In this document: one piece after another, positions 2,502 through 53,549 of the stretch
Layout: each line of letters starts with the position of its first letter
Position numbering within the stretch: position 1 is the first letter of the stretch
NCBI GenBank assembly: GCA_964427535.1
Contig: CAYRVF010000006.1
Span: 3,945-67,944 of the forward strand
Source of the DNA: an uncultured Ktedonobacterales bacterium
GTDB lineage: Bacteria > Chloroflexota > Ktedonobacteria > Ktedonobacterales > JADMIN01
Length of the DNA stretch: 64,000 bases
Direction: 5' to 3'
The notes under the pieces: generated by a model
Told to the model about the DNA's origin: nothing
What the model saw: the letters and a program-made list of their open reading frames with translations, nothing else
The model's database searches: none
Program-made: the position numbers and the translations under genes

Positions 2502-3086
2502 CTATAGATCCGCCGAGCGCTGCTTCCGCTGCTGGCGGTAGGCGCGGGCGTGCATGCGGTTGCCGCACGTCGCCATCGAGCACCACACGCCGGAGTGGTT
2601 CTTCGAGGTGTCGTAGAACGCGCCCCCACAGGCCGTGTTGCGGCAGATTTTGAGCCGCGTCCAGGTTCCCGTCAGCATCGCGGCATACACCTCGCCGAAG
2701 ACACGCGCGAGCACGCCATCCACACCCGCGCTCTCGGGAGACAGCAGCACAGACGACGCCGAAGGGAACTGCACCATCAGCGGCAGATGACGCGCCATCT
2801 GATTGAGCGTCTCGTGTGCGTCCGCGACTGTGGAGCTATCCGCGTCGCCCCGTTGCAGCATGTGCCGCAGCGCCTCGCGCACGGTAAGCGCGCGCCGATA
2901 GTCGCCGTCCGACACTGGTGTATCTGCCGTGATCAGGCCATGCTGGACCAACCACGACCGCATCTCCTCACGATCGGGCCAGGCATCGTGCAGCCGCTGC
3001 CGCTGACCATATCGCGTATTGAGCAGGTCCTGCACGAGCGCCAGGCCGCCGGGAGCCCGCGTCGTCTGCCGATGGGCCATCGCCAT
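2502..3086 (-). CDS. CGNR zinc-finger domain-containing protein (ABATE plus zf-CGNR putative regulator)
   Basis: Same frame as ORF 2502..3167. C-terminus CRNTACGGAFYDTSKNHSGVWCSMATCGNRMHARAYRQR is the CGNR zinc-finger signature. Start ATG 3086 has GAAGGA 6 nt upstream. Confidence 0.85.
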   Translation of the reverse strand: MAMAHRQTTRAPGGLALVQDLLNTRYGQRQRLHDAWPDREEMRSWLVQHGLITADTPVSDGDYRRALTVREALRHMLQRGDADSSTVADAHETLNQMARHLPLMVQFPSASSVLLSPESAGVDGVLARVFGEVYAAMLTGTWTRLKICRNTACGGAFYDTSKNHSGVWCSMATCGNRMHARAYRQQRKQRSADL

Positions 3087-3199
3087 ATATCCTTCATGTC
3101 GCATCATAGACACCGCTATCACTACCATATTATATACACCGGTAACACACATCCAATAATACGCCATTTACGAAGCGCGCGCATAACCATCAAAGTATC

Positions 3200-3229
3200 T
3201 TGACTAGTTATTATAGGTCGGGCTACAGT
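3200..3229 (+). promoter_or_regulatory. candidate sigma-70 type promoter for the MFS gene
   Basis: TTGACT (3200-3205), 18-nt spacer, TACAGT (3224-3229), in an unusually AT-rich divergent intergenic region. Confidence 0.3.
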
Positions 3230-3280
3230 GTCACACATGGACAGTCATCCGCACGCCGTCTCCACGTGAAAGGCCCTCCG

Positions 3281-4831: not shown

Positions 4832-4982
4832 CCCGGCTCTGACATGCCCCCTCGAACCAGTATACTTAGACCAGAGCGCGACGCCGCCACGGCACAATTC
4901 GCGCTCTGCCAGCGGGATATGACCGTCAACGAGTGGATGCTAGCGAGCGGGGGCGCTCGATGCCTGAGAGGAGAGACGCACT

Positions 4983-6134
4983 GTGGCACGGTTCCTCTTC
5001 GTGACCTGGCCTGGCTCTGGTAATCAGGTCCCCACGCTCGGCATCGCCCAGGCTCTACGAGAACACGGTCACTCGGTCACATTCGCAGGGTATGTCAGCC
5101 AGCGCGAGCGGTTCGCTGCCCGGGGATTCCCGCTGACGCCGATGGAGCGGTCCTCGTCGGCACTCCAGAGGGCGCCAAAGGGTGATGTAATGGCCGCCCT
5201 GGTCGCGACCGTGTGGGCGACGCCCGATCACCTCGCGGATGTGCGCGACGCGGTTGAGCGCGAGTCTCCGGATGTGCTGGTCGTCGATTGTTTGCTGTTT
5301 GGCGTGCTCGCGGCGGCGGAATCGATGGGGGCGAACACCGCTGTCCTCGTCCACAGCGCGCCGGGGCTGCTGGAGCCGCCCGATGGTCCGTTCGAGCAGA
5401 CGCTCTTGCTCGCCCCCATCAATGCGGTGCGGGCATCGGCTGGCCTGGCGCCTGTGGCTCACGCATGGGACGTCTGGGCGCGCTTCCCCACCCTCTGCGC
5501 CTCGCTGCGCGTGCTAGACCCCCTGGCTGACCAGGCGCCGGAGTCGTTTCGCTATGTCGGCCCGGTCTTCGAGCGCATGCCCGACTCGGGCTGGCGCGCG
5601 CCGTGGGCGGCGGATGATACCCATCCGCTGGTGCTCGTCAGCTTCTCCGCGGGCGACGCCTGGGATCAGACATCACGCATCCAGCGTACGCTCGTCGCGC
5701 TCGCCGAGACGCCCGTCCGTGTGCTCGTCACGGCGGGTAGTGCGAACGTATCTGGCCTGACCATTCCTGACAACGCGGTGGTCATTCCAGGCGTTCCGCA
5801 CGCGGAGGTCTTGCCGTCCGTCGCGGCGGTGGTGACGCACGGCGGCCACGGCACCGTCACCGCAGCCCTCGCGCATGCGGTCCCCGTCATCTGCCTGCCC
5901 AATCTGACCTCCGACCAACCCGGCATCGCGGCTCAGATCGCGGCGCTTGGCGCGGGACTGGCGCTCGATGGCGACGCCGCGACGCCCGATGACATCCGTG
6001 CGGCGGTCGTTACCGTGCTGCGCGAGCCGTCCTATGCCGCCGCCGCTCGCCGTCTTGCCGCGATGATCGCCGAATCTCACAGCGCCGAGGCGTCAGTCAC
6101 CCTGTTGAAGCACGTTGCGGGCGCTGCTCACTAG
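4983..6134 (+). CDS. glycosyltransferase family 1 (MGT/UDP-glycosyltransferase type)
   Basis: ORF 4983..6134 (GTG start). N-terminal FVTWPGSGNQVPTLGIAQAL. C-terminal nucleotide-sugar motif VVTHGGHGTVTAALAHAVPVICLPNLTSDQPGIAAQIAALGAGLAL. Confidence 0.85.
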   Translation: MARFLFVTWPGSGNQVPTLGIAQALREHGHSVTFAGYVSQRERFAARGFPLTPMERSSSALQRAPKGDVMAALVATVWATPDHLADVRDAVERESPDVLVVDCLLFGVLAAAESMGANTAVLVHSAPGLLEPPDGPFEQTLLLAPINAVRASAGLAPVAHAWDVWARFPTLCASLRVLDPLADQAPESFRYVGPVFERMPDSGWRAPWAADDTHPLVLVSFSAGDAWDQTSRIQRTLVALAETPVRVLVTAGSANVSGLTIPDNAVVIPGVPHAEVLPSVAAVVTHGGHGTVTAALAHAVPVICLPNLTSDQPGIAAQIAALGAGLALDGDAATPDDIRAAVVTVLREPSYAAAARRLAAMIAESHSAEASVTLLKHVAGAAH

Positions 6135-16452: not shown

Positions 16453-16953
16453 ATGGGCACGCCTCACGATCCGGCAGACCCGCGCCAGCCGCTCACGACG
16501 GCCACCCAGGACGCGATCGACCCGACGGACACGCTGGCCATCGCGAACCGGCTGCGTCCGGTGCTACTGCGCATCCACCGCTATCTGCGCGACGACGCGC
16601 ACGAGCTGGGCGTCACCAGCACGCAGGCCAGCCTGCTCGGCACGGTCCACCACATGCCGGGCATCGGCGTCAACGAGCTCGCAACCCACGAGCACATGAG
16701 CGCCCCCACCCTTGTCAGCCACCTCGACCGGCTGGAGGCGATGGGCCTGGTCGAACGCAGTCGCGACAACCCTGCGGACCGCCGGCGCGTCGGGTTGCGG
16801 CTCACCGACAGAGGCGAGCAGACGTTACAGACGCTCCGCGAGCGGCGCACCGCCTGGCTGGCGACCCGGCTCGAGACCCTCTCACCCGAGGAGCTTGCCG
16901 CCGTCGCAGCCGCCATCGATCCCTTGCAGCAGTTAGTGAGGCGCGGCGAATGA
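16453..16953 (+). CDS. MarR-family transcriptional regulator
   Basis: ORF 16453..16953 with AAAGGAGG upstream. Winged-helix region LGVTSTQASLLGTVHHMPGIGVNELATHEHMSAPTLVSHLDRLEAMGLVERSRDNPADRRRVGLRLTDRG. Confidence 0.9.
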   Translation: MGTPHDPADPRQPLTTATQDAIDPTDTLAIANRLRPVLLRIHRYLRDDAHELGVTSTQASLLGTVHHMPGIGVNELATHEHMSAPTLVSHLDRLEAMGLVERSRDNPADRRRVGLRLTDRGEQTLQTLRERRTAWLATRLETLSPEELAAVAAAIDPLQQLVRRGE

Positions 16954-18248
16954 GGATCTCGCTTCGCGCGTCCACCGGATTGCAGTTGGGTAGCCGCACC
17001 TTTACGAGTCTGCGCCACCACTACAACTACCGTCTGTATTTCGCCGGGCAACTGCTTTCGCAGACCGGCACCTGGCTGCAAAGCGCGGCGATGGCCTGGC
17101 TGGTGCTCACGATGACGCACTCCGCCTTCGCCGTTGGCGTGCTCTCGTTCTGGCAATTTGGGCCGTATGCCGTGCTGGGCCTCTTCGGCGGCGCCATCGC
17201 CGACCGGCTCGATCACCGCGTCACGCTCATCGTCACCCAGACGGTGCTCGCGCTCTGCAGCACGGCGATGGCGGTGCTCACGCTGCTCCACGTCGTCACC
17301 GTGCAGGAGGCGTACATTATCGCGGCACTGCGCGGGCTCTCGCTCGTGCTCAACAATCCGAGCAGGCAGGCATTCATTCTGCAGATGGTCGGACGCGAGG
17401 AGCTGCCGAACGCGATCGCGCTCAATTCGAGCCTGGTAAATGCCACGCGCATCATTGGTCCCGGTATCGCGGGCGTCCTCATCGCGGCGTTCGGCGTGGG
17501 CATCTGTTTCAGCATCGACGCCGTCAGCTACTTCGCCGTCATCGTGGCGCTGCTGCTGATGCGCGTCAAAGACCTGACCCCGATCGAGCGCCGTCCGCAG
17601 CTCTCGGTGCTACGGAGCACGGGCGAGGGACTGCGCTACGTCTGGCGCACGCCGACAGTGCTGCTCGTGCTGACGATGTTCCTCTTCATCTGCACCGCGA
17701 GCATTAACTTTACCGTGCTGCTGCCCCTCGTGGCGAGCAACACCCTCGGCCAAGGCGCGCAGGTCTTCGGACTGCTGACTTCGTGTTTCGGGGCGGGTGC
17801 TCTCATCGGCGCGTTGATCTCGGCGTCCTTCGCCACGGCCACCTGGCGCATTCTGCTGGTCAGCGCGGCAGGATTCGGCCTTGGCGAGGTGCTGCTGGCG
17901 CCGCAGAAGACGCTCCTCGGCGCGATTGTGTTGCTGATGGCCACGGGCGTCTGTTACACGCTGTACACGTCGAACACCAACTCGCTCGTGCAGCTCAACA
18001 CGCCGGGCTACCTGCAAGGGCGAGTCGCCGGGCTGTATAGCTACATCTTCGCGGGCACCAGTCCGCTAGGTGCGCTGCTCGCCGGTGGATTGGCGGAGCG
18101 CGGCGGCACACAGCTCGCCTTCTTCGTCGCGGGCGGCACAGCGCTCGTCTTCGCCGCGTACGGGGTCGTCCAGGTGCGGCGCGGCTATGTTGCCGAAGGG
18201 CGTCCCTGCTCCGACGACGTAGCCTCCGACGACGTCGAACCGGTCTAG
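16950..18248 (+). CDS. MFS transporter (MFS_3 / enterobactin-exporter-like family)
   Basis: ORF 16950..18248. The ATGA overlap with the marR stop suggests translational coupling. There are 12 predicted hydrophobic segments. N-terminal FTSLRHHYNYRLYFAGQLLSQTGTWLQ is typical of this family. Confidence 0.88.
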   Translation: MRISLRASTGLQLGSRTFTSLRHHYNYRLYFAGQLLSQTGTWLQSAAMAWLVLTMTHSAFAVGVLSFWQFGPYAVLGLFGGAIADRLDHRVTLIVTQTVLALCSTAMAVLTLLHVVTVQEAYIIAALRGLSLVLNNPSRQAFILQMVGREELPNAIALNSSLVNATRIIGPGIAGVLIAAFGVGICFSIDAVSYFAVIVALLLMRVKDLTPIERRPQLSVLRSTGEGLRYVWRTPTVLLVLTMFLFICTASINFTVLLPLVASNTLGQGAQVFGLLTSCFGAGALIGALISASFATATWRILLVSAAGFGLGEVLLAPQKTLLGAIVLLMATGVCYTLYTSNTNSLVQLNTPGYLQGRVAGLYSYIFAGTSPLGALLAGGLAERGGTQLAFFVAGGTALVFAAYGVVQVRRGYVAEGRPCSDDVASDDVEPV

Positions 18249-18311
18249 CAGGGAAGCTCATCAAGAGCGGCCAGACGATTCCCTCTCCGGCCGCCACACT
18301 CCCGAGCAGGC

Positions 18312-18869
18312 TCACTGCGGCAGAGCCTCGCGCACGGTGCCCGCTTCGAGATCGAAGTAATGGCGCCGTATCAGCATCGGATTCTTGCCAAAGAGCACCA
18401 GCTCCTTCGCTGTGCCACCCATCCCTTGCTGCGAGTGGATGTCGTGGGGCGGCGCCATCCATACCACGTAGTCGCCTACCCCAAGCTCGCGCTCATACAG
18501 GAGGCGCAGACGCGCATGGCCGGGATTATCGCCCGCATCCATGCGCTCCCACTGCATGTAGCGATCATGGCCCGCCACTACACAGGCGATCCCCCACGAA
18601 TCGTGGTCGTGAACGGGCGTAGGCGCGGCGGCGGGGAACTCGGCCAGCATCAGTGTGAGCGCAGCGTCGCCGAGGGACGCCACGATCGTCGACGTGGCCG
18701 CGCTGTCGTGCATCGGCCTCATCTTGTCGTCAAAGATGAGGCCCGGCTCCCGCACCAGCTCCGCCAGGCGCTCACCCACCTGCCGCACGCTCGGCTCGGT
18801 CACACCCTCGCGGGCGAGAAAGGTCTGCGTCTCCCGCATGAAGCGGGTGATAGCCTCGTGCGTCGACAT
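18312..18869 (-). CDS. cupin-fold thiol dioxygenase-like protein (cysteine dioxygenase type I family-like)
   Basis: Same frame as ORF 18312..18983. Start ATG 18869 has GGAAGGAG upstream. Metal-binding-like PTPVHDHDSWGIACVVAGH ... PPHDIHS pattern. Last gene of the sulfur operon. Confidence 0.65.
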   Translation of the reverse strand: MSTHEAITRFMRETQTFLAREGVTEPSVRQVGERLAELVREPGLIFDDKMRPMHDSAATSTIVASLGDAALTLMLAEFPAAAPTPVHDHDSWGIACVVAGHDRYMQWERMDAGDNPGHARLRLLYERELGVGDYVVWMAPPHDIHSQQGMGGTAKELVLFGKNPMLIRRHYFDLEAGTVREALPQ

Positions 18870-18939
18870 CTCGATCTCCTTCCTTGCCATGACCTCCGCG
18901 ACATGTCGCATGGCTCCCCGTCTGCCTGTCACACGACCG

Positions 18940-20052
18940 TCACACGACCGACACGCACACGGTCTGAATGGCGTTATTGGCATAGCCGAGGCGGTTCCAC
19001 ACTGATTCGGCAGGCTGGGCGTTCCCGGCCTCGTCGAATGCCCGGCTGCGCAACGTCACCTCGCCGGGACGCTCGGGGTGCCAGACGTACTGCCACGACC
19101 TCCATGCGTAGCGAGACGGCTCGCTGGTCCAGTCGGCGAGCCACCACCTCGCGCCGCCGTCGACGCTGACCTCAACTCGGCGTACCGGTGCCATACCCGA
19201 CCAGGCCAGCCCACGCAGCACATGGCGCCCGCGCGCCAGAGTGGCACCGGCCTCCGGTGTCGTGATGACCGAGCGCACGGCGATCCTCGTGAGCGGCGTG
19301 GCGCCAGACGCGCCGCCCTCCGGATGCACCAGAATGTAGCGCTCGACCTGATAGAATCCACGGAAGCGCTGCGCGATCGCCGCGATGCGCACCACCCACT
19401 TCACCGCTGCTACCCCATACCAGCCGGGGACGACGAGGCGCACTGGGAAGCCGTGCTCCGGCGGCAGCGGTTCGCCGTTCATCACATATGCCAGCAGCGT
19501 ATCGGGGTGGAGGGCCTGCTCACGCGGCAGGCAGCGAGCGAAGGGAATCACCCCGTCCGCCGCGGCTACGTAGCCGTGATCGGCGCCCTCGACGACGATC
19601 TCGCGCGCCTCGGGCGACATGCCCGCCGCCTTCAGCACAGTCCGCAGGGGCACGCCGGTCCACTCCGCCGTGCTTGCCGCGCCATATCCCCACTGCTCGC
19701 CCTCGGCCCGTGGCCGCATCGCCGCGCGACCGTTGCCCGCGCACTCCAGCGTGACCCGCAGCGTGCGGCTCGGCAGCGCGCACAGCTCCTCATACGTCAG
19801 CTCCACCGGCGCCGCGACCTCGCCAGTGACCGCCAGGCGCCACTCCGCGGCCACACAGGTCGGCACGGCGAAGTGGTTGCGGACGTAGAATGCCGCGTTG
19901 GGTGTGACCACCCCCACGTGGCGCGCCAGCAGAGTCTCGGCGTTAAACGGTACCTCGCTGACGGCGGCGAGGCGCGGATCGTGAGCGGCGCCCAGCGCGA
20001 CCGCGCTGCCGCCGGATTGTGCGGACCGAGTCACCTCGTGATCGGTGGCCAT
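18940..20052 (-). CDS. sulfite oxidase-like molybdopterin oxidoreductase (Moco-binding plus dimerisation domains)
   Basis: ORF 18940..20052. FYVRNHF, the molybdenum-ligand cysteine context VTLECAGNGR, WTGVPL, and a C-terminal Mo-co dimerisation-like domain (VEVSVDGGARWWLA). No signal or Tat peptide. Confidence 0.88.
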   Translation of the reverse strand: MATDHEVTRSAQSGGSAVALGAAHDPRLAAVSEVPFNAETLLARHVGVVTPNAAFYVRNHFAVPTCVAAEWRLAVTGEVAAPVELTYEELCALPSRTLRVTLECAGNGRAAMRPRAEGEQWGYGAASTAEWTGVPLRTVLKAAGMSPEAREIVVEGADHGYVAAADGVIPFARCLPREQALHPDTLLAYVMNGEPLPPEHGFPVRLVVPGWYGVAAVKWVVRIAAIAQRFRGFYQVERYILVHPEGGASGATPLTRIAVRSVITTPEAGATLARGRHVLRGLAWSGMAPVRRVEVSVDGGARWWLADWTSEPSRYAWRSWQYVWHPERPGEVTLRSRAFDEAGNAQPAESVWNRLGYANNAIQTVCVSVV

Positions 20053-20062
20053 GGGACCCTCC

Positions 20063-21127
20063 TCACGCGCCCGGCGTGTGGCGCCCAGCCATCACGGCGG
20101 CCCTCTGCCAGGCCTCGGTGCCACCGCGCACGTTCATGACCTGCTCAAAGCCCACCTGCCGGAGGAACTGCGCCGCGCGCTGCGAGCGTGCGCCACTGCG
20201 GCACACGAGCAGCAGCGGACGGTCACGCGGCACTTCGTCCAGGCGCGCGGCAAGCTCGGCCTGCGGCAGATTGACCGCGCCGGGCACGTGTCCACCGGCG
20301 TATTCCTCCGGCTCGCGGACGTCCAGCACGAGCGCGTCCGGGGCCTGGCGTTCCAAATCGACGACATCCACCTGTGGCACGTCCGGGGCATCGGTGAGCA
20401 TCGCCCACGACATAGCGGCCATGCCGCGATTCGTCGCTTCGATAGCCATCATGTTCAGCGGCCGCGGGGGCACGCTGGACGTCAGGTCGGAGATGAACGC
20501 GGCACGGTCAAGCCGCGCCAGCGGATTGCAGAGGCGCTCGTAGCCGACCGTCGTGACGGGCTGGCCCGACATGCTCCTGCCGCACGGCCCCTCGAAGTGG
20601 CCAGGAAAGACCGCCACCCACTCCGGCAGCGCGAGCAGGCGCTGGATACTCTCGTATTGCGCCTCGGCGTCGCCGCCACCGAAGTCCGGGCGCCCCACAT
20701 CACCGGCCAGCAACGCATCGGCCGTCAGCGCCATCGCTGGCTCCGAATTACGCGGCGGGTTGACGAGCAGGATCGAGATCAACTCGGGGCGGTGACCCGG
20801 CGTGTGCAGCACGCGCAGGCGCAACTGCCCGAGCTCGAACTCCTGGCCGTCGTGCAGCGGCGTGAAGGGGTAGCTCGTACGCGCCGTCTCGTGAAGGCAC
20901 AGCTCCGCGCCAGACTGGGCCGCAAGCTGGCGCGCGCCCGAGACATGATCGGCGTGGATGTGCGTGTCGATCACGTAGCGCAACCGATAGCCGCGCAGGC
21001 GCAGCACCGACTCGTACTGCTCCGTCTCGAGCGCGGGGTCGACGATGACCGCTTCGAACGAGCGACGAGACGCGATGAGGTACGACGCGCAGCCGTGGAG
21101 CTGATTCAGAAACTGCTGGAAATACAT
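20063..21127 (-). CDS. persulfide dioxygenase (ETHE1-like MBL fold) fused to a rhodanese domain
   Basis: ORF 20063..21127. MBL motif VIDTHIHADHVSGA. C-terminal rhodanese with active-site loop VCRSGARS. Confidence 0.88.
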   Translation of the reverse strand: MYFQQFLNQLHGCASYLIASRRSFEAVIVDPALETEQYESVLRLRGYRLRYVIDTHIHADHVSGARQLAAQSGAELCLHETARTSYPFTPLHDGQEFELGQLRLRVLHTPGHRPELISILLVNPPRNSEPAMALTADALLAGDVGRPDFGGGDAEAQYESIQRLLALPEWVAVFPGHFEGPCGRSMSGQPVTTVGYERLCNPLARLDRAAFISDLTSSVPPRPLNMMAIEATNRGMAAMSWAMLTDAPDVPQVDVVDLERQAPDALVLDVREPEEYAGGHVPGAVNLPQAELAARLDEVPRDRPLLLVCRSGARSQRAAQFLRQVGFEQVMNVRGGTEAWQRAAVMAGRHTPGA

Positions 21128-21160
21128 GGCACGAACCCCCTCACTCTAGGCGCGCACCTG

Positions 21161-22036
21161 CTAGGCGCGCACTTGGGCGGGCACACCAGCCTCGATCGGG
21201 GAGCCCACCAGGCTGCCCCACTCCGTCCACGAGCCGTCGTAGTTGCGGACATCCGGATAGCCCAGCAACTCATGCAGCACGACCCAGGTGTGCGCACTCC
21301 GCTCGCCGATGCGGCAGTACGCGATCACCGCTTTCTCCGGCGTGACCCCCTTCCCGCCATAGATCATCCGCAGCTCGTCTGCTGACTTGAACGTGCCGTC
21401 CTCGGCCACGGCCGTCGCCCAGGGGATGTTCTGCGCGCTGGGGATGTGCCCGCCGCGCTGGGCGCCCTCCTGCGGCAGGTTGGCCGGCGCCAGCAGCTCA
21501 CCACTGTACTCGTCGGGGCTGCGCACATCGACCAGCGCGGTGGAAGGGGCGGAGAGCGCCGCGCGCACCTCGTCGCGCAGGGCGCGCAGGTCCGTGTCCA
21601 TCCGCCGCACCCGGTAGACAGTCGCCGGAATGCCCGGCGACTCGACAGTCAGCGCGCGGCCCTCGTCCATCCACTTCTTGCGCCCGCCGTTCATCAGCCG
21701 CACGTCGTTGTGCCCATAGAGTTTGAAGAGCCAGTAGGCGAAGGCCGCGAACCAGTTGTTGTTGTCACCGTAGAGCACGACGGTGGTGTCGTTGGCGATG
21801 CCAGAACGTCCGAGCAGCGCCTCCCAGTCGTCGGGCGTCGGGATGTTGCGCTCGGGGTGCCGCTGGAGATCGCGTTTCCAGTTCCACCCGACGGCGCCCG
21901 GAATGTGGCCGCCGTCGTAAGCCGACGTATCCACGTCCACCTCGACCAGCCGCATCGTCGGGTCATCGAGTCGCCCGGCCACCTCGCGTGTCGCGATCAG
22001 CGCATCCATCCTGACGTCGCCACCAGACTTCGTCAT
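21161..22036 (-). CDS. sseA: thiosulfate/3-mercaptopyruvate sulfurtransferase (tandem rhodanese, SseA-like)
   Basis: Same frame as ORF 21161..22285. Start ATG 22036 has GGAAGGAGG upstream. Two rhodanese domains; active-site loop YCRIGERS. Confidence 0.88.
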   Translation of the reverse strand: MTKSGGDVRMDALIATREVAGRLDDPTMRLVEVDVDTSAYDGGHIPGAVGWNWKRDLQRHPERNIPTPDDWEALLGRSGIANDTTVVLYGDNNNWFAAFAYWLFKLYGHNDVRLMNGGRKKWMDEGRALTVESPGIPATVYRVRRMDTDLRALRDEVRAALSAPSTALVDVRSPDEYSGELLAPANLPQEGAQRGGHIPSAQNIPWATAVAEDGTFKSADELRMIYGGKGVTPEKAVIAYCRIGERSAHTWVVLHELLGYPDVRNYDGSWTEWGSLVGSPIEAGVPAQVRA

Positions 22037-22114
22037 CGCAGTGCCTCCTTCCGCGGCCACCCAGACCGCATGTCGCCGACTCCCAGGCGCGGCCACGCCG
22101 CACCTCACGAAAGA

Positions 22115-22162
22115 AGGATAGGCGGTGCGGCTTCCCAGAAGCTTCCCAGAAGCTTCCCAGAA
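22115..22162 (-). promoter_or_regulatory. three perfect 11-nt direct repeats plus a -10-like hexamer upstream of the sulfur operon (candidate SARP box/promoter)
   Basis: Read on the minus strand: TTCTGGGAAGC x3 (22162-22130), then CGCACCGCC (9 nt), then TATCCT (22120-22115). The sseA ATG is at 22036. Confidence 0.45.
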
Positions 22163-22244
22163 ACCTCCCATGCGGTGGGGCCTGAGGGGAGCCGCGAGAC
22201 GTGAGACGACATCGAGCGGGCGGGAGGGTGCGCGCTGGCTGCCA

Positions 22245-25200
22245 TCAGGCCCGAGCGAGGGCGGCGGCGAGCGAGGGCGCGACATAGCGGGCGAGTATCA
22301 CCTCGGCCTGTCGATGCGCGTCAGTACGGTCCCGTCCGTCCTCCAGCGCGGCCAGTGCCCGCAGGGTTAGCGCCAGGTCGTAGTGGTCACCAGCCGCACC
22401 GAACAGGTCCGCGGCCTCCAGCAGGCAGCGCACGGCCTCGGCTGTCTCGTCACGCGCGGCATGGATCTGCCCGCGAACACGCGCCAGACGGGCGCGTCCG
22501 GGCCGGCTTTGCGCATAGCCGGAGAGTTGCCGCGCCCGCTCGATGCACCGCCACGCCTCGTCCGGCTCCCCGGCCATGAGGTGGAAGGTGGCCAGCGCCT
22601 CGCAGATCTCGACCTCGCAGACGGCGCACGGCGGGCAGGTGGCAGCGTGCGTTGTGGCCGCCTCGATCAGCGCCGTGGCGCCGCCCGCATTGCCCGCTTG
22701 TGAGCGGTTGCGGATGCCAGCCGCGTAGAGCTGCCGCAGACTGTGGTCGCGCAGGGAGGCCCGGCTCGCCGCCTCGATCCCTCGCTCGATGAGGCGGGCC
22801 GCAGGTGCATAGACGCCCGCTGCGGTGAGCAGCTCGACCTGCTGCGCCAGGGTGTACGCCACACCGGCCTGTGAGCCGATCTGCTCATGCAGCGCCAACG
22901 CTCGCGCGAAGTTCTCAGCGGCGGCGGCGGGGAGCCCTTGATGGAGCGCCAGGTTCCCCAATACGAAGTGGCAGACCGCCAGGCAGTGCTGGTTGCCGGC
23001 CGTCGCCGACTGCCGCGCGAGCGTTTCGATGAATCGCCGCGTGTGCTGCAGTGATTCCTCACCCTGGAACGCATGCAGGTACAGGCACAGGTGTGCATCC
23101 ACGGCCACCATAGTGTCGAGCGACCAGCCCGACGTCTGCCAACGCAGCTCGCAGCGCAGCCCCTCTTCCCAGTGGCCCAGTGGGAGGTGCGCGATCGCGA
23201 GCATCTCATAGGCCTGGCTGATCTCCGCTCGCGCGCCCACACGTTCGGCGATCACCAGCGCCCGCGAGGCATGCTGGAGCGCCATGTCATACTGGTGTCC
23301 GTACCAGGCGTAGAGGGCATCGGCGATCAGCAGCCGCGCTTCGTCGGCCGCGTCCGCTCCGCCGAGCGCGCGGGCCAGGGCCAGGTGTTCGGCCGCGACC
23401 GGCATATCCACATTCAGGATCGCGCCGACGGCGATCTTACGGTACAGGTTGAACCGACGGCCGCGCTCGAACGGCGCCTCCGCCTCCTGCCCGGCCAGGG
23501 CCTCCACTGCCTGGAGATACTGCTCGTGAGCACGTGCCACATCACCAATGGCGCGGTGGGTGTCGCCGGTGCGCTCGTGAACCTCGGCGAGCAGCGGCGC
23601 TCGATCGCGGTGCTGGCTGCGCTGCAGCAGCGCCAGCGCCTCGCCGTAGCGGCTGAGCGCGCCGTCATGGTCGTAGACCGCTTCGGCACGCGCCCCCGCC
23701 TGGAGCAGGTAGTGGACGGCGCGCCGCGTATCACCCGCTTGCCGGTAGTGGAAGGCGATGGCCTCGACCGGCGTCGACCCGGGCGCATCCGCCTGGAGTG
23801 TCTCCAGCACGCCGGCGACCACACCATGCAACATCGCCCGCCGGGCCTGCGAGAGTTGCTCATACACCGCCTCGCGCAGCAGCGGATGCGGGAAACGGAA
23901 GGTGAGACCCACCTCCGTCAGCACACCGGCGGCGAGCAATTCGTCCACCAGATCGAGCAGGGAGCCACCTTCCTCGCCACCCTTCATTCCGCGCTCAAGC
24001 AGCGACAAGGGGATATCGCGGCCGGCGACGGCGGCCAGCTGGAGCAGTTGTCCGGCGGCCGGCGAGAGCGACGCCATCCGGTGCCGGGCCAGCGCGTGCA
24101 GCGACGGCGGGATTGCTGAAGCCGTGATCGCTAGCGAGCCGGCTGGGTCGGGGTCGCCCGCGAAGCGCCAGGCGCCCTCCACCTGGACGATGCCGCCGTC
24201 GGCAGCAAGCTGGCGCGCCATCTCCCTGGCGAAGAGCGCGTTGCCTTCCGAGAGGCGATAGAGCGCGGCGGCAAGCTGAGGATTGACATCGCCAGCCCCA
24301 AGCGCCTGCGACACCAGGGCGCGGTGCTCCTCGGCGGTGAGGGCGGTCAGGTGCAGCCGCTGCAGGATCTGCACCCGCTCCAGGCTGGCGATGGTCTCGG
24401 CCAGAGCGGGCGCCGCGCCGGGCTCGTGGGGCCGCCAGCCGCCGACCAGCAGCAGGGGCAGGGTCGCCGTCTCGCGCGCGAGGTACGAGAAGAGCTTGAG
24501 CGAGCCCGCGTCAACGGCGTGCAGGTCGTCGAGGACCAGGATGATCGGCGCCGTGCGTGCCCGCGCCGCCAGGAAGCGAGCCACCCCCGCGAAGAGCGCG
24601 CGCTGGGCCGCCAGCCGGTCGGGGAGACTGACCAGCACCGACGCCGAGATCTCCGGGATGGCGACCGCCAGCTCTGCGGGGATGAGCTCCGCGCCGGTAG
24701 GGTCGTGCCAGAGGGTACCGCGCAACGCCTCGACGAACGGCATATAGGGCATCTGCCCCTCCTGCTCATGCGCGGTGCCGAAGAGGACATGCCAGTGCCG
24801 CTGCCAGCCGAGCCGCTGGATCTCCTGCGCCAGCCGCGTCTTGCCGATGCCCGCGTCCCCTTCCACCCCCAGGACCGCGCCACGTCCCCGCGCGAGACGA
24901 TCGAGGAGGGCGCCGATGACGCGCAGCTCCGTCCGGCGCCCGATCAGCGGCGGCAACATGGCGAGGTCGGTCGCGGGGCCGCTGCCGGGGAGCCCAGCGC
25001 GCTGCACTCGTTCCTCCAGAATGTCGTGATACAGCGCTGCGGTCTCGGTCGACACGTCCGTGCCCAGCTCGCGCGCCACGGCCTCCGTGCAGATGCGAAA
25101 CTGCCGCAGCGCGCGGGCGCGGCTGCCCTGCCGCGCATAGGCCAGCATCAGGCCGCGCTGTGCGTCTTCGCGTGTCGCGTCGCGGGCAACGGCCTGGCGG

Positions 25201-25808
25201 AGCGCCTCGGCGGCATCGGCCACAGCACCTGCCTCCAGGTACGCCTCGCCCAGCTCCACCAGCAGGTCGATATACCGCTCACGCAGCGTCTCGCGTCGCT
25301 CGGCCACCCACGGCTCATAGAGGTCGCCTGGCAGGAGGTCGCCCGTGTAGCGTCCGGCAGCCCGGTGGAGCGGGTCGAGATCTCGCGTCGTGAGCGCCTG
25401 GCGGGCTTGCGACTCGAACTCGGCGAGGTCGGTCGAGACGCCGCCCGGAGCGGACAGGCCAAGGACATCGCCGCGCAGATGCAGCAGCGCATCGGGCGGC
25501 TCCGGTGGCCCGGCGACGGCGAGCGCCTTGCGCGCTTGGTGGATCGCTTTGTAGAGTTGGGTCGCAGCCGAATCCGGGGTCAGCTCCGGCCAGAGGTGCT
25601 CCATCACCTGCTCGCGATGGAGCTGATAGCCAGGTTGTAGCGCCAGCAGCTTGAGCAGGCTCAGCGCCTTGCGGCGCGCGAAGGCCGCTTCCGGCACCGG
25701 TCGCTGACCGAGCCAGATGCTGAACTCACCCAGCAAGGTGAGCCGCAGCTCGGTGCGCCCGGCGGCGAGCTGCGCGGTGGCGCGTGGGGATTGCGAGCGG
25801 GATGTCAT
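22245..25808 (-). CDS. SARP/AfsR-type regulator: winged-helix DNA-binding domain, BTAD, P-loop NTPase (AAA_16) and TPR-like C-terminal region
   Basis: Same frame as ORF 22245..25982. Start ATG 25808 has AGGAGG upstream. LRLTLLGEFSIWLGQRPV...KALSLLKLLAL (OmpR/SARP-type head). BTAD segment YTGDLLPGDLYEPWV...RQGSRARALRQF. Walker A GVEGDAGIGKTRLAQE; Walker B ILVLDDLHAVD. Long helical-repeat C-terminus. Confidence 0.85.
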   Translation of the reverse strand: MTSRSQSPRATAQLAAGRTELRLTLLGEFSIWLGQRPVPEAAFARRKALSLLKLLALQPGYQLHREQVMEHLWPELTPDSAATQLYKAIHQARKALAVAGPPEPPDALLHLRGDVLGLSAPGGVSTDLAEFESQARQALTTRDLDPLHRAAGRYTGDLLPGDLYEPWVAERRETLRERYIDLLVELGEAYLEAGAVADAAEALRQAVARDATREDAQRGLMLAYARQGSRARALRQFRICTEAVARELGTDVSTETAALYHDILEERVQRAGLPGSGPATDLAMLPPLIGRRTELRVIGALLDRLARGRGAVLGVEGDAGIGKTRLAQEIQRLGWQRHWHVLFGTAHEQEGQMPYMPFVEALRGTLWHDPTGAELIPAELAVAIPEISASVLVSLPDRLAAQRALFAGVARFLAARARTAPIILVLDDLHAVDAGSLKLFSYLARETATLPLLLVGGWRPHEPGAAPALAETIASLERVQILQRLHLTALTAEEHRALVSQALGAGDVNPQLAAALYRLSEGNALFAREMARQLAADGGIVQVEGAWRFAGDPDPAGSLAITASAIPPSLHALARHRMASLSPAAGQLLQLAAVAGRDIPLSLLERGMKGGEEGGSLLDLVDELLAAGVLTEVGLTFRFPHPLLREAVYEQLSQARRAMLHGVVAGVLETLQADAPGSTPVEAIAFHYRQAGDTRRAVHYLLQAGARAEAVYDHDGALSRYGEALALLQRSQHRDRAPLLAEVHERTGDTHRAIGDVARAHEQYLQAVEALAGQEAEAPFERGRRFNLYRKIAVGAILNVDMPVAAEHLALARALGGADAADEARLLIADALYAWYGHQYDMALQHASRALVIAERVGARAEISQAYEMLAIAHLPLGHWEEGLRCELRWQTSGWSLDTMVAVDAHLCLYLHAFQGEESLQHTRRFIETLARQSATAGNQHCLAVCHFVLGNLALHQGLPAAAAENFARALALHEQIGSQAGVAYTLAQQVELLTAAGVYAPAARLIERGIEAASRASLRDHSLRQLYAAGIRNRSQAGNAGGATALIEAATTHAATCPPCAVCEVEICEALATFHLMAGEPDEAWRCIERARQLSGYAQSRPGRARLARVRGQIHAARDETAEAVRCLLEAADLFGAAGDHYDLALTLRALAALEDGRDRTDAHRQAEVILARYVAPSLAAALARA

Positions 25809-26095
25809 GGTCGGACCTCCTGACGTGTCCGATCCCGCCGCCTCGCGAGGGATGGCGGGAAGTACGCTCCCCCTTGTGCTCTCTACCGCGATTGTACTCC
25901 ATCGGATGGGCCGCGGAGACGACGTCGTGATAGCGCATCGCCACGCGTGTCGAAGCGCATGCGACATATCCGGCATGGGCAAGACGAGAGCAACGTCTGT
26001 CCCAAAACGGCGCGGTCAACCCTCTTCATGTGTGACCGCGACACTGTGGTGGTCATGACGATAGCGCAGCCATACAAACAAAGAGAGGGCATGTG

Positions 26096-26899
26096 ATGCA
26101 TATCGCCGTCTTTGGAGCACATGGCAAGACAGGGCAACTCTTGACGCAACAGGCGCTTGCCGAAGGGCACGCGGTGACGGCCGTCACACGTCATCCGGAG
26201 ACATTTCCTCTTCGTCACCAACGACTACAGGTGATGCGTGCAGACGTGTTCGATCTCGCATCGGTTGAACACGCCATCGCCGGACAGGATGCCGTCCTCT
26301 CGACCCTGGGCGTGCCATTCAGTCGCAAGCCGATCACCGTGTATTCACAAGGCACCGCGCAGATCGTGCAGGCCATGACGCGGCACGGCGTTCGCCGCCT
26401 CGTCTGCGTGAGTTCGAGCGCAACCGACCCGCGGACACGCTACCACGACACAGGCGGTGGCTTCCTCTTTGAGAGGATTCTCAAGCCAATCATCATCAAT
26501 ACGCTTGGGCGCACCACGTATGAAGATATGCAGAAGATGGAAGCGCTGGTGATGAACAGTCAGCTTGAGTGGGTCATTGTCCGTCCCTCTGGTCTCTTTG
26601 AGACGGACTCCATCACCGACTATCGTGTGGCTGAAACGTCCATACGCGGACAATTTACCTCCAGGGCGGATCTCGCGGACTGCATGCTCCAGCAGCTCAC
26701 CAGTGACCGGTTTCTCCGGAAGGCGGTGGCGGTGGCGACGTTCTCGGCGCGGCCGAACCTGCTGCAGTTCGTTGGCGGAGAGGCATTCCAGCGCCAGCCA
26801 ACCGCCTCGAACGGCATCGAGTCTCACGCGAGCACGACCACGACCACGACCACCGCTCTCCATCGGGACGAGGCAGGAACGTATGACAAGGTCAGATAG
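26096..26899 (+). CDS. NAD(P)H-binding protein (NmrA/atypical SDR, flavin reductase-like)
   Basis: Same frame as ORF 26093..26899. MHIAVFGAHGKTGQLLTQQALAEGHAVTAVTRHPE Rossmann motif. C-terminal low-complexity tail with a poly-Thr run. Confidence 0.85.
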   Translation: MHIAVFGAHGKTGQLLTQQALAEGHAVTAVTRHPETFPLRHQRLQVMRADVFDLASVEHAIAGQDAVLSTLGVPFSRKPITVYSQGTAQIVQAMTRHGVRRLVCVSSSATDPRTRYHDTGGGFLFERILKPIIINTLGRTTYEDMQKMEALVMNSQLEWVIVRPSGLFETDSITDYRVAETSIRGQFTSRADLADCMLQQLTSDRFLRKAVAVATFSARPNLLQFVGGEAFQRQPTASNGIESHASTTTTTTTALHRDEAGTYDKVR

Positions 26900-27332
26900 A
26901 GCGCCACGTTTTGTGCGCGGAGCCAATATCCTGATAGTCGCCCTGGCACGTGCGGGGTTCAAGCTCGTCGGGTTCGGGAAATATCCCATGTATCTGGTCA
27001 CGATACGCGGACGTACAAGCGGGCAGCCGCGTACGGTTCCGCTCGTGATTATTGAGCGCAATGGGAAGCAATACCTGGCCTCTCCGTTTGGGGTCGTCAA
27101 TTGGGTGCGTAATCTGCGGGTGGCGGGAGAAGCGACCCTTACGCGTGGGCGTCGTTCTGCGACGGTCACGGCGAGGGAGCTCCCGAAAGACGAAGCGACC
27201 CTCGTGTTGCGGGACGACATCAGAGACGGGAACCCCTTCGCGCGCTACTTCGGCGTGACCGCGGACTCCTCGCTTGAGGAGTTTGAGCACGCGGCGGCCA
27301 GCCATCCCGTGTTTGAGTTGGAGAGGAAGTGA
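26883..27332 (+). CDS. nitroreductase-family deazaflavin (F420)-dependent oxidoreductase (DDN-like), second copy
   Basis: In frame with ORF 26565..27332. ATG 26883 chosen because homology-like sequence begins there (LVTIRGRTSGQPRTVPLVIIERNGKQYLASPFGVVNWVRNLRVAGEATL). Overlaps the preceding gene by 17 nt. Confidence 0.85.
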   Translation: MTRSDRAPRFVRGANILIVALARAGFKLVGFGKYPMYLVTIRGRTSGQPRTVPLVIIERNGKQYLASPFGVVNWVRNLRVAGEATLTRGRRSATVTARELPKDEATLVLRDDIRDGNPFARYFGVTADSSLEEFEHAAASHPVFELERK

Positions 27333-42550: not shown

Positions 42551-42855
42551 TTCAAGCAATGGTAAAACCGGCCGAAGCCGTTGTCAAGGCTGTTTGCTCC
42601 CTGCCGACATCTCCGCTGGAGCGGAACACGCGCTGTTCTACCAAAGGGCCTCACACGCCCACGCCGGCGAGCACTCGTCGCCTTCCAACTGCCTTCTTCC
42701 AGGCACCTGGTAGGCTGCAGATGCGCTGTCGCGAGCGGCACTCGTACAGGCTACACGCTTTAGGCTCACTCTGTGCGAAGAAAGACGGGCGTTCACCTCG
42801 ATCCGGGAGATGGACTGGACGGACCGTGCCGCAGGCATTGCACAGGAGAGCAGGT

Positions 42856-53253: not shown

Positions 53254-53549
53254 GGGGATCTGCCTTCCTGTCGCCCTCGCGACAACTGATGCTCCGGTGG
53301 CCCCTGTGGGACCCCTCCTCGAAAACGCCATCAATCTGTGACCAGTGTGCGTGGCAACAGGAATCCAGGCCACCGACAACTCGTACAACGCCTCCGACAA
53401 TCGCTCGCACAATTACCGAGCATCGCGTTGATGGGGGGGTAGCCGCAGTGGTATCATGGCGGCTAAGTTAAGCGGGACGTGGATGTGGCGTGGCGGGACC
53501 CTGGCTCCTGTTGGTTGCGGCCAAACAGAGTGGAAAGGGGACCAGCACC

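What the first reader, a model, noticed from the sequence alone, without database searches (positions are those of the whole stretch)
22115..22173. Perfect 3 x 11-nt direct repeat phased with a -10 hexamer between a SARP-STAND regulator gene and the sulfur operon
On the minus (coding) strand the 208-nt gap reads ...TGGGAGGT TTCTGGGAAGC TTCTGGGAAGC TTCTGGGAAGC CGCACCGCC TATCCT... The three identical 11-nt units span 22162-22130. A degenerate fourth unit lies upstream. A 9-nt spacer separates the last unit from a TATCCT -10-like hexamer (22120-22115), about 80 nt before the sseA ATG. SARP regulators are known to bind heptameric direct repeats spaced 11 nt apart (one helical turn). Their promoter-proximal repeat sits about 8 nt upstream of the -10 element and substitutes for a -35. 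The gene immediately upstream on the same strand (22245..25808) encodes exactly such a regulator, fused to a STAND NTPase/TPR sensor. Each unit also contains TTC-N3-GAA dyad symmetry. SARPs are best known from actinomycete antibiotic clusters, so one wired to a thiol/persulfide oxidation operon would be an unusual regulon.
Basis: partly seen in the sequence, partly recalled or inferred. Interest (0 to 1): 0.7.

Follow-up and report, generated by a model that had tools for sequence, protein, structure and literature searches.

The report
SARP activator boxes before sulfur operon
The 11-base repeats are very probably the docking sites of the neighbouring AfsR-like (SARP) activator, which stand in for a missing -35 promoter element and switch on a sulfur-oxidation operon. 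The same box-plus-regulator pairing recurs in several bacterial phyla next to sulfur and thiol genes.

Summary
On the minus strand, 22170-22115 reads TGGGAGG-tttc-TGGGAAG-cttc-TGGGAAG-cttc-TGGGAAG-N10-TATCCT. An independent assembly shows the same array.

No binding or transcription experiment was possible.

- **Regulator:** the upstream gene (22245-25808) has SARP, STAND ATPase and TPR domains. Its modelled N-terminus superposes on DNA-bound AfsR (TM 0.76).
- **Near relatives:** in all 14 relatives at 42-69% identity whose 3' flank is available, a pair nGGGAAG-N4-nGGGAAG follows the regulator gene, 10 nt before a TAnnnT-type hexamer.
- **Whole family:** across 1.09 Mb of family loci, GGGAAG pairs peak sharply at period 11 (113, against 3-20 at other periods). 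The -10 hexamer sits at exactly N10. Start codons pile up 6-7 nt after it, as expected for leaderless mRNAs.
- **Geometry:** heptamers at -29 and -40 reproduce the AfsR afs box. The window's two extra units are a lineage-specific in-phase expansion.
- **Targets:** these are rhodanese, persulfide-dioxygenase-like, sulfite oxidase, TusA, DsrE and OsmC genes, not antibiotic clusters.
- **Host:** the host is a Chloroflexota bacterium.
- **Sensor clue:** the regulators share three invariant cysteines.

The mechanism is canonical. The subfamily, its regulon and its phylum range appear undescribed.

The parts
22164..22170 (-). Distal, degenerate heptamer TGGGAGG (unit 4). It lies at about -62..-56 if the TSS is at 22108.
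   Evidence: Sequence. It is in 11-nt phase with the other units. No counterpart exists in near relatives L001, L003 or L004.
22153..22159 (-). Heptamer TGGGAAG (unit 3), at about -51..-45. This is an extra upstream unit.
   Evidence: Sequence. Its CTTC spacer is identical to that of the next unit, which implies a recent 11-bp duplication. Arrays of 3 units (28 cases) and 4 units (3 cases) occur elsewhere in the family.
22142..22148 (-). Heptamer TGGGAAG (unit 2), at about -40..-34. It is the equivalent of the upstream direct repeat of the AfsR afs box and replaces the -35.
   Evidence: Conserved in all near relatives. Geometry compared with PMC10936776.
22131..22137 (-). Promoter-proximal heptamer TGGGAAG (unit 1), at about -29..-23. 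It is the equivalent of the downstream direct repeat of the afs box.
   Evidence: It lies 10 nt upstream of the -10 hexamer, as in 81 of 100 family arrays.
22115..22120 (-). -10 hexamer TATCCT.
   Evidence: A TAnnnT/nAnnnT hexamer sits at exactly N10 across the family. Start codons peak 6-7 nt after it, as for leaderless mRNAs.
22108..22108 (-). Predicted transcription start (G), 7 nt after the -10. It gives a leader of about 72 nt.
   Evidence: Inferred from the family-wide position of leaderless start codons. Not measured.
22044..22050 (-). Shine-Dalgarno sequence AAGGAGG, 7 nt before the rhodanese ATG.
   Evidence: Sequence.
22245..25808 (-). AfsR-like regulator of 1187 aa. It has a SARP domain (winged helix plus BTAD), a STAND ATPase (AAA_16) and a long TPR region with an invariant Cys triad (C908, C1061, C1064).
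21161..22036 (-). Two-domain rhodanese (SseA / 3-mercaptopyruvate sulfurtransferase-like). First gene of the controlled operon.
   Evidence: Pfam Rhodanese 1.7e-36. NCBIfam 3-MST model at 119 bits, below its cut-off.
20063..21127 (-). Metallo-beta-lactamase-fold plus rhodanese fusion (persulfide-dioxygenase-like).
   Evidence: Pfam Lactamase_B and Rhodanese. Blh and GloB models match below their cut-offs.
18940..20052 (-). Molybdopterin sulfite oxidase/dehydrogenase (SorA/SoxC-like).
   Evidence: Pfam Oxidored_molyb 4.8e-58 and Mo-co_dimer. SorA model at 261 bits, below its cut-off.
18312..18911 (-). Last gene of the operon, about 200 aa, with no family match.
   Evidence: No Pfam or NCBIfam hit even at E<=1. 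It is convergent with the MFS transporter gene at 16950-18248.

Best explanation
The array is the operator of an activator-dependent promoter for the operon at 22036-18312 (rhodanese, persulfide-dioxygenase-like enzyme, sulfite oxidase).

**Proposed mechanism.** The promoter has a -10 (TATCCT) but no -35. Two protomers of the adjacent AfsR-like SARP regulator bind side by side, on one face of the helix, to the two promoter-proximal TGGGAAG units at about -40 and -29. There they take the place of sigma region 4 / -35 recognition and recruit RNA polymerase, as AfsR does at afsS.

The two further in-phase units, at about -51 and the degenerate one at -62, arose by recent 11-bp tandem duplication. 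They most likely raise occupancy or cooperativity for a regulator that oligomerises through its STAND ATPase.

The STAND/TPR part is thought to keep the SARP domain inactive until ATP and an unknown signal release it. The signal may be sensed through three invariant cysteines.

**Shown here:** the sequence anatomy, the domain architecture, the conservation of box, phase and distance to the -10, and the conserved link to sulfur/thiol genes.

**Inferred:** binding, activation, the TSS, the role of the extra units and the nature of the signal.
For: 1. **Anatomy**.

2. **Regulator is SARP + STAND + TPR.**
- Pfam.
- Profile hits to AfsR 8hvr (4.6e-16), 8k60, and EmbR (1.9e-13) over the whole SARP domain.
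- AF2 model with pLDDT 84.5. Foldseek to AfsR chains 8k60_I and 8hvr_I gives TM 0.76, rmsd 3.5-3.7 A. The top hit is a STAND-TPR protein, 6mfv.

3. **Near relatives.** All 14 relatives at 42-69% identity whose 3' flank is available carry nGGGAAG-N4-nGGGAAG-N10-TAnnnT or nAnnnT shortly after the regulator's stop codon. These are L001, L003, L004, L005, L006, L007, L009-L013 and L104-L106.

4. **Internal controls on 1.09 Mb of loci.**
- GGGAAG pairs at period 11 number 113, against 3-20 at every other period from 6 to 30.
- TAnnnT lies at spacer 10 in 39 cases, at 9 in 1, and at no other spacer from 0 to 20.

5. **Arrays.** There are 100 arrays in 82 loci. Of these, 81 have nAnnnT at N10. ATG/GTG counts peak at offsets 6 (12) and 7 (10) after the hexamer, against about 1-2 elsewhere. 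These leaderless transcripts independently mark the hexamer as a real -10.

6. **Geometry.** With the TSS at 22108 the units start at -29 and -40. That equals the afs box, with DRup at -40..-30, DRdown at -29..-19 and the first 8 bp contacted (PMC10936776). Here 8 positions (nGGGAAGr) are conserved and 3 are variable.

7. **Common neighbour.** The regulator is the only gene shared by all box-bearing loci. The targets vary: OsmC 18, DsrE 6, TusA 4, plus rhodanese, SCO4226-like and PIG-L.

8. **Covariation.** The flanking box positions vary with the recognition helix. The QLYK clade has T/C at position 1, and the (R/K/N)LHK clade has G/C.

9. **Specificity.** Strict boxes occur in 43 of 58 loci with a full-length family member, against 4 of 21 loci with only partial matches.
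Against: - There are no experimental data. No footprint, TSS or expression data exist for this or any family member in the papers I could search.
- The loci were collected through the regulator, so adjacency is partly by design. The period and spacer controls and the variable target genes mitigate this but do not remove it.
- 15 of 58 full-length loci lack a strict box. Several of these have weaker ones, and many contigs are short.
- The Trans_reg_C hit of the winged helix is below Pfam's cut-off (22.6 against 26.2 bits).
- The perfect identity of three units, including the presumably uncontacted spacer, shows recent slippage rather than selection on each unit. The extra units may therefore do nothing.
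- The covariation is confounded with phylogeny and G+C content.
Confidence: 0.8

Rival explanations
1. Only the two proximal heptamers are functional. The perfect repeat that caught the reader's eye (units 3 and 4) would be a neutral product of replication slippage that is tolerated because it adds whole helical turns upstream of the real site.
For: - The closest relatives (L001, L003, L004, L104-L106) have just two units.
- The two CTTC spacers are identical, which indicates very recent duplication.
- 69 of 100 family arrays have two units.
Against: - Arrays of 3 units (28) and 4 units (3) recur independently in distant lineages, always in phase and always upstream of a pair that keeps N10.
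- Known SARPs such as DnrI, ActII-ORF4 and PimR use three heptamers (PMC10972967).
- The same copy number is found in a second assembly.
Confidence: 0.3
2. The array is the operator of a different, dimeric regulator that reads the TTC-N3-GAA dyads or the GAAGCTTC palindromes. A persulfide-sensing repressor of the CstR, BigR or SqrR type would be a candidate.
For: The dyads and an 8-bp palindrome at the unit junctions are really present. Known sulfide-oxidation operons are usually controlled by such repressors (established knowledge).
Against: - The TTC spacer is not conserved in the (R/K/N)LHK clade, whereas GGGAAG is invariant.
- Direct-repeat phasing at 11 bp and a fixed N10 distance to the -10 are the conserved features.
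- No such repressor gene is shared by the loci.
- The promoter lacks a -35, so it needs an activator.
Confidence: 0.05
3. The repeat acts at the RNA level, as a terminator or processing site of the regulator transcript, as a small RNA, or as part of a structured leader.
For: There is a sub-threshold Rfam match to CcsR1 over 22092-22165 (23.5 bits, E 0.032). The units can pair locally because of the palindrome.
Against: - The Rfam score is far below the gathering score of 65.3.
- Folding energy is no better than shuffled sequence (z = 0.01).
- No terminator-like site is present.
- The array lies upstream of the predicted TSS.
- Conservation is of a DNA direct repeat at fixed distance to a -10, not of pairing.
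Confidence: 0.03
4. The SARP protein binds the array but represses the operon, by occluding RNA polymerase, rather than activating it.
For: The sites overlap the -35 region and the spacer, where repressors also bind.
Against: - There is no recognisable -35 for unaided sigma-70-type initiation.
- The geometry is identical to the activating AfsR complex.
- BTAD-containing SARPs are activators in all characterised cases (PMC10972967).
Confidence: 0.05

Closest known systems
AfsR of Streptomyces coelicolor and its afs box at the afsS promoter
   Same: - Same architecture of SARP (winged helix plus BTAD), STAND/NOD ATPase and TPR.
- Two 11-bp direct repeats on one helix face at -40..-19, overlapping a poor or absent -35.
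- About 8 conserved and 3 variable bp per unit.
- The modelled SARP domain superposes on DNA-bound AfsR (TM 0.76).
   Different: - Only about 25% identity. The NCBIfam AfsR model scores 38 bits against a cut-off of 1430.
- Different box sequence (nGGGAAGr).
- Up to four units.
- The C-terminal TPR region is about 190 aa longer and carries an invariant Cys triad that did not align to AfsR.
- The host is Chloroflexota.
- The targets are sulfur/thiol genes, not afsS or antibiotic pathways.
Small pathway-specific SARPs (ActII-ORF4, DnrI, RedD) and SARP-LAL PimR
   Same: Heptameric direct repeats with 4-nt spacers, in arrays of two or three units, overlapping or adjoining the -35 (PMC10972967).
   Different: Those regulators sit in antibiotic gene clusters of actinomycetes. 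The small ones lack the STAND/TPR part, and the PimR site does not overlap the -35. Their heptamers are of the TCGAGxx type (from memory, not checked here).
EmbR of Mycobacterium tuberculosis
   Same: SARP domain fold (profile E 1.9e-13, Foldseek TM 0.56). It is a non-antibiotic regulon in the sense that it controls cell-wall genes.
   Different: EmbR has a C-terminal FHA domain and is controlled by phosphorylation. It has no STAND/TPR part.
Persulfide/sulfide-responsive regulators of sqr-pdo-rhodanese operons (CstR, BigR/SqrR, FisR)
   Same: The same kind of target genes (rhodanese, persulfide dioxygenase, sulfite handling). Sensing through cysteines is possible in both.
   Different: Unrelated protein families: CsoR-like or ArsR-like repressors on palindromic operators, and a sigma-54 activator. 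None uses direct repeats that replace a -35. This comparison rests on established knowledge and was not tested here.
OmpR-family activators on tandem 11-bp units (PhoP PHO boxes, GlnR boxes)
   Same: Winged-helix protomers bound head-to-tail on direct repeats one helical turn apart. PMC11301090 notes the resemblance.
   Different: Those are response regulators activated by phosphorylation. They have no BTAD or STAND domains.

Membership tests
SARP family (protein) | N-terminal OmpR-type winged-helix DNA-binding domain followed by a BTAD domain | tested here: met
   - BTAD 3.4e-18, above its cut-off.
- Trans_reg_C 1.2e-4, below its cut-off.
- Profile of 24 family N-termini hits AfsR 8hvr at 4.6e-16 over profile positions 4-247, and EmbR at 1.9e-13.
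- Foldseek to AfsR gives TM 0.76 and rmsd about 3.6 A.
SARP family (binding site) | Direct, not inverted, heptameric repeats with 11-bp (or 22-bp) periodicity | tested here: met
   The window has four units at period 11. Family-wide, period 11 gives 113 pairs against 3-20 for other periods.
SARP family (binding site) | 3' repeat about 8 bp from the -10, with the site overlapping or replacing the -35 | tested here: met
   - The gap is 10 nt from the heptamer TGGGAAG, or 6 nt from the end of the 11-bp unit. This gives the same -40/-29 register as the afs box if the TSS is at 22108.
- The exact number depends on how the heptamer register is drawn.
- No -35 is present.
SARP family | Specific binding of the protein to the repeats and activation of transcription | not testable with these tools
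   Needs EMSA or footprinting, in vitro transcription or genetics.
SARP family (as described in reviews) | Actinobacterial host and control of secondary-metabolite clusters | tested here: not met
   - The host is Chloroflexota. The PEP carboxylase's best named relatives are Ktedonobacterales at 64-72%.
- The targets are sulfur/thiol genes.
- The review PMC10972967 states that SARPs are exclusively actinobacterial.
- This is a habit of the known members rather than a structural criterion.
Large SARPs of the AfsR type | SARP domain followed by a STAND (NOD) ATPase and C-terminal TPR sensor | tested here: met
   AAA_16 1.8e-22, plus TPR_12, TPR_2 and MalT-like TPR. The top Foldseek hit is the STAND-TPR protein 6mfv_A at E 1e-12.
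AfsR orthologue | Scores above the curated AfsR equivalog model | tested here: not met
   NF053617 scores 38 bits against a cut-off of 1430. This is a distinct subfamily.
Sulfide/persulfide oxidation operon | Rhodanese, persulfide-dioxygenase (MBL-fold) and sulfite-oxidising enzyme encoded together | tested here: inconclusive
   The domains are present, but all curated equivalog models score below their cut-offs. No SQR gene is in the operon, and enzyme activities are untested.

The most novel reading that the evidence does not exclude
The window exposes an uncharacterised family of AfsR-like STAND activators that spans several phyla: Chloroflexota, Actinomycetota, Balneolaceae and KSB1.

- The family has its own conserved operator: nGGGAAGr in 2-4 copies, 11-bp phase, N10 to the -10.
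- It has an invariant D-x-H/Y-x-C ... C-x-x-C triad in the TPR sensor.
- It would act as a cysteine- or metal-based sensor of reactive sulfur, or possibly selenium or thiol stress.
- It would switch on sulfur-trafficking and thiol-protection genes (rhodanese, PDO, sulfite oxidase, TusA, DsrE, OsmC, SCO4226-like, mycothiol-type amidases).

That would make it a new class of sulfur/redox-responsive transcription factor. It would also show that the 'antibiotic regulatory protein' mechanism serves primary stress physiology well outside the actinomycetes.
Probability: 0.3. Interest if true: 0.75.

Novelty: new variant of a known kind. Interest (0 to 1): 0.6.

Why it matters
SARPs are textbook antibiotic-pathway activators, and a recent review calls them exclusive to actinobacteria (PMC10972967). 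This locus and about 80 related ones point to something broader:

- The same sigma-adaptation mechanism, with tandem boxes replacing the -35, appears in Chloroflexota and other phyla.
- It appears to govern sulfur-transfer and thiol-protection genes.
- It uses one strongly conserved box that allows regulon prediction from sequence alone.

This gives a concrete, testable candidate for a new regulator class of sulfide/persulfide or thiol stress. Known regulators of such operons (CstR, SqrR/BigR, FisR) belong to other families.

It also offers a natural series of 2-, 3- and 4-unit operators for asking how STAND oligomerisation couples to promoter occupancy. Several cultured carriers make experiments feasible: Kribbella, Cellulomonas, Salinilacustrithrix, Halalkalibaculum and Kallotenue.

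Tried and rejected
- **Metagenome scan for close relatives.** I scanned for the exact two-unit string TGGGAAGCTTCTGGGAAGC, hoping to find relatives with other copy numbers. It returned 19 contigs, and none encodes the regulator or the sulfur enzymes (tblastn). Most are unrelated GGAAGCTTCC satellite-like repeats in low-GC contigs. L093 has a similar array of 3 perfect units plus degenerate ones, but no -10 at N10 and no informative context.\n- **Rfam.** On 17000-27000 there is only a sub-threshold CcsR1 hit over the repeat. I judged it chance.\n- **RNA folding of the intergenic region.** No better than shuffles.\n- **PDB search with the single protein sequence.** It found only a designed TPR protein. 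A family profile was needed. A profile of the winged helix alone gave only marginal hits.\n- **PDB search with a profile of the Cys-containing C-terminal region.** Only generic TPR proteins matched, and AfsR matched at E 0.24 without covering the cysteines.\n- **The last operon gene (18312-18911).** No Pfam or NCBIfam match even at E<=1.\n- **Is the array coding?** The 374-aa ORF 21161-22285 runs through the repeat in frame with the rhodanese. I rejected this reading. Homologues and the public gene call start at the ATG at 22036, which has a strong Shine-Dalgarno.\n- **Literature.** Three literature searches timed out. The three that ran found no paper linking SARPs to persulfide, rhodanese or OsmC genes, or to a GGGAAG box. 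Absence from that library is not proof of novelty.

Full report
**1.

Read on the minus strand, the 208-nt gap between the regulator's stop codon (22245) and the rhodanese ATG (22036) contains this sequence:

TGGGAGG-tttc-TGGGAAG-cttc-TGGGAAG-cttc-TGGGAAG-ccgcaccgcc-TATCCT-tctttc-GTG

The three identical 11-mers TTCTGGGAAGC lie at 22162-22130, the 9-nt spacer follows, and TATCCT is at 22120-22115.
- Tandem Repeats Finder reports period 11, 3.7 copies.
- The 11-mer is otherwise almost absent from the window.
- No sigma-70-like -35/-10 pair and no terminator lie in the region.
- An independent public assembly (L107), which encodes the identical rhodanese, has the same 3 + 1 units. Its contig ends exactly at the upstream edge of the array.

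**2.

- The regulator at 22245-25808 (1187 aa) has BTAD, AAA_16 and TPR domains. Its winged-helix hit is sub-threshold.
- A profile of 24 family N-termini matches the AfsR SARP domain (8hvr, 4.6e-16; 8k60) and EmbR (1.9e-13) end to end.
- An AlphaFold2 model (mean pLDDT 84.5) superposes on DNA-bound AfsR chains with TM 0.76 and rmsd about 3.6 A. Its best PDB match overall is a STAND-TPR protein.
- Downstream, on the same strand, lie four genes:
  - a two-domain rhodanese,
  - a metallo-beta-lactamase-fold/rhodanese fusion (persulfide-dioxygenase-like),
  - a SorA/SoxC-like molybdenum sulfite oxidase,
  - a gene of about 200 aa with no family match.
- The host is a Chloroflexota bacterium. The window's PEP carboxylase is closest to Ktedonobacterales MAGs (64-72%) and Thermomicrobiales (63%). 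G+C is 64-68%.

**3. Orthologous loci keep the box**

Homologues of the regulator are numerous. I fetched loci for the closest ones and 80 more from species genomes.

In every near relative (42-69% identity) whose 3' flank is present, a pair nGGGAAG-N4-nGGGAAG lies 4-140 nt after the regulator's stop codon. In L013 the regulator ORF is split, and the pair lies about 800 nt after the first stop. The pair is followed after exactly 10 nt by a TAnnnT or nAnnnT hexamer. These relatives are L001, L003, L004, L005, L006, L007, L009-L013 and L104-L106. L004 has a second box facing the divergent gene.

These relatives have two units, or three in L005 and L007. The window's units 3 and 4 have no counterpart in L001, L003 or L004. 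The identical CTTC spacers point to a recent 11-bp duplication.

**4. Family-wide statistics with internal controls**

These figures come from 1.09 Mb of loci.

- Pairs of GGGAAG cores (up to 1 mismatch in total) number 113 at period 11. At every other period from 6 to 30 they number 3-20.
- Given such a pair, TAnnnT lies 10 nt after the proximal core in 39 cases and 9 nt in one. It lies at no other spacer from 0 to 20. Five cases at 21 nt are three-unit arrays.
- Chaining units gives 100 arrays in 82 non-redundant loci: 69 with two units, 28 with three and 3 with four. Of these, 81 have nAnnnT at N10.
- ATG/GTG codons pile up 6 and 7 nt after the hexamer (12 and 10 cases, background about 1-2). 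This is the signature of leaderless mRNAs that start at the predicted +1, and it marks the hexamer independently as a working -10.
- The consensus unit is n-G-G-G-A-A-G-r plus three variable bases.
- Strict boxes occur in 43 of 58 loci with a full-length family member, but in only 4 of 21 loci whose match is partial.

**5. The geometry equals the AfsR paradigm**

PMC10936776 reports that SARP sites are direct repeats 11 or 22 bp apart, with the 3' repeat 8 bp from the -10. In that paper, the afs box spans -40..-19 as two 11-bp repeats. [quoted passage not shown] The dimer also holds sigma region 4, the beta flap, the beta' zinc-binding domain and the alpha C-terminal domain. PMC11301090 says the same.

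If transcription starts 7 nt after TATCCT (G at 22108), the window's units begin at -29, -40, -51 and -62. The proximal pair then coincides with DRdown and DRup of the afs box. The 8-conserved + 3-variable pattern fits as well.

**6. Which protein reads the box**

The regulator is the only gene common to the box-bearing loci, and the genes behind the boxes vary. The recognition helix (window residues about 80-96, SAATQLYKAIHQARKAL) is the most conserved stretch of the family.

Its two variants go with different flanking bases of the box:

| Helix variant | Sites | Box position 1 | Box position 8 |
|---|---|---|---|
| QLYK | 14 | T/C (G 0%) | A/G |
| (R/K/N)LHK | 47 | G/C (T 1%) | G (87%) |

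GGGAAG itself is invariant in both groups. This correlation is suggestive, but it is confounded by phylogeny and G+C content.

The TTC-N3-GAA dyad and the GAAGCTTC junction palindrome exist only where the spacer is T-rich, which is the near clade. They are therefore not the conserved signal.

**7. What the family controls**

Of 81 first ORFs behind boxes:

- 18 are OsmC-like
- 6 are DsrE
- 4 are TusA
- 3 are PIG-L (mycothiol-type deacetylase/amidase fold)
- 3 are SAM methyltransferases
- others are flavin or pyridine-nucleotide-disulfide oxidoreductases

In the near clade the targets are of three kinds:

- rhodanese, sulfite oxidase and PDO (window, L001, and the contig of P0005),
- a SCO4226-like small protein, sometimes followed by TusA and DsrE (L003, L004, L104-L106; neighbouring M19 dipeptidase and gamma-glutamyltranspeptidase genes in L104/L106 are not behind the box),
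- OsmC plus a methyltransferase (L005, L006).

The sulfur/thiol regulon is therefore typical of the subfamily and not peculiar to this window. Many members are in Actinomycetota. There the box usually precedes an OsmC / oxidoreductase / oxidoreductase / regulator operon, which implies positive autoregulation.

**8. The sensor**

Three cysteines are invariant in all 41 full-length members aligned: D904-x-(H/Y)906-x-C908 and C1061-x-x-C1064. The window's clade adds C942-x3-C946-H.

This region is TPR/MalT-like, and it did not align to AfsR over the cysteines. A thiol- or metal-based sensor is an attractive inference given the regulon. Nothing here tests it.

**9. Mechanism proposed**

- Shown: the anatomy and the conservation.
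- Inferred: the rest.

An unknown signal, together with ATP, would release the SARP domains from inhibition by the STAND/TPR part, as reported for AfsR. Two protomers would then occupy units 1 and 2, substitute for the missing -35 and recruit RNA polymerase. Transcription would start near 22108 and run through a 72-nt leader into the four-gene operon. Units 3 and 4 probably add cooperative occupancy for an oligomerising regulator, but they may be neutral.

**10. Rivals**

| Rival | Confidence |
|---|---|
| Extra units neutral | 0.3 |
| Operator of another, dimeric repressor | 0.05 |
| RNA-level element | 0.03 |
| Repression instead of activation | 0.05 |

The evidence for and against each is given in the rival entries.

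**11. Novelty and verdict**

- The mechanism is that of a known kind (AfsR-type SARP box).
- The subfamily, its box, its Cys-bearing sensor, its sulfur/thiol regulon and its presence in Chloroflexota, Balneolaceae and KSB1 are not described in the papers I could search (three further searches failed).
- This contradicts the review statement that SARPs are exclusively actinobacterial.
- Confidence that the array is this regulator's activating operator is 0.8.
- Interest is 0.6.

Noticed in passing
window 22617-23087 (-), regulator residues 904-1064: Three cysteines are invariant in all 41 aligned family members from several phyla: D-x-H/Y-x-C908 and C1061-x-x-C1064. The window's clade adds C942-x3-C946-H. 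This may be a metal or thiol-redox sensor. It did not align to AfsR.
   Followed up: partly
L107 1-60 (equivalent to window 22172-22113): An independent Logan assembly of a near-identical strain ends exactly at the upstream edge of the repeat array. This suggests an assembly break caused by the repeat or by copy-number heterogeneity in the sample.
   Followed up: no
L093 1340-1430 (-): A soil metagenome contig carries a similar 11-nt array with 3 perfect TTCTGGGAAGC units and about 3 degenerate ones upstream. It has no -10 at N10 and no regulator or sulfur gene on the 3.8-kb contig. A second repeat (cgtacttccc) lies just downstream.
   Followed up: partly
L013, L015, L018, L021, L026 (regulator genes): In some family members the ORF stops after about 870-900 aa while the protein similarity continues beyond the stop. 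The Cys-bearing C-terminal TPR part may be a separate gene, or these may be frameshifts. Database proteins of 757-887 aa (P0041, P0068 and others) fit the same pattern.
   Followed up: no
L038-L083, about 2750-6000 in locus coordinates: In Actinomycetota the box typically precedes an operon of OsmC-like protein, pyridine-nucleotide-disulfide oxidoreductase, FAD monooxygenase and the regulator itself, which suggests positive autoregulation. Many neighbouring box promoters are divergent pairs that drive leaderless genes.
   Followed up: partly
L003, L004, L104, L105, L106 (first gene after the box): In the near clade the commonest first target is a small SCO4226-like (nickel-binding family) protein. 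In L104 and L106 the neighbouring genes (not behind the box) include an M19 dipeptidase, gamma-glutamyltranspeptidase, a methyltransferase and DJ-1/PfpI. This pattern hints at low-molecular-weight thiol catabolism.
   Followed up: no
window 21161-22285 (-): A 374-aa ORF runs in frame from inside the regulator's 3' end through the repeat into the rhodanese gene. Gene callers could wrongly extend the rhodanese N-terminus across the promoter.
   Followed up: yes
window 53490-56480 (+): A second STAND-type regulator is present, with a different DNA-binding head (XRE-type HTH_3 + AAA_16/NACHT + MalT-like TPR).
   Followed up: no
window 42559-44019 (+): A cystathionine beta-lyase gene (539 bits, above its cut-off) lies 20 kb from the operon. 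It is another sulfur-metabolism gene and has no box in front of it.
   Followed up: no
window 18312-18911 (-): The last gene of the operon has no match in Pfam or NCBIfam. Its sequence contains HDHD...H motifs, but I could not assign a fold.
   Followed up: partly
window 61738-61912: The strongest tandem repeat in the window has period 15/30 and about 6-7 copies. It is probably a coding repeat. I did not examine it.
   Followed up: no
window 22092-22165 (-): A sub-threshold Rfam match to the stress-induced sRNA CcsR1 (23.5 bits against a gathering score of 65.3) overlaps the repeat. I judged it a chance match.
   Followed up: yes
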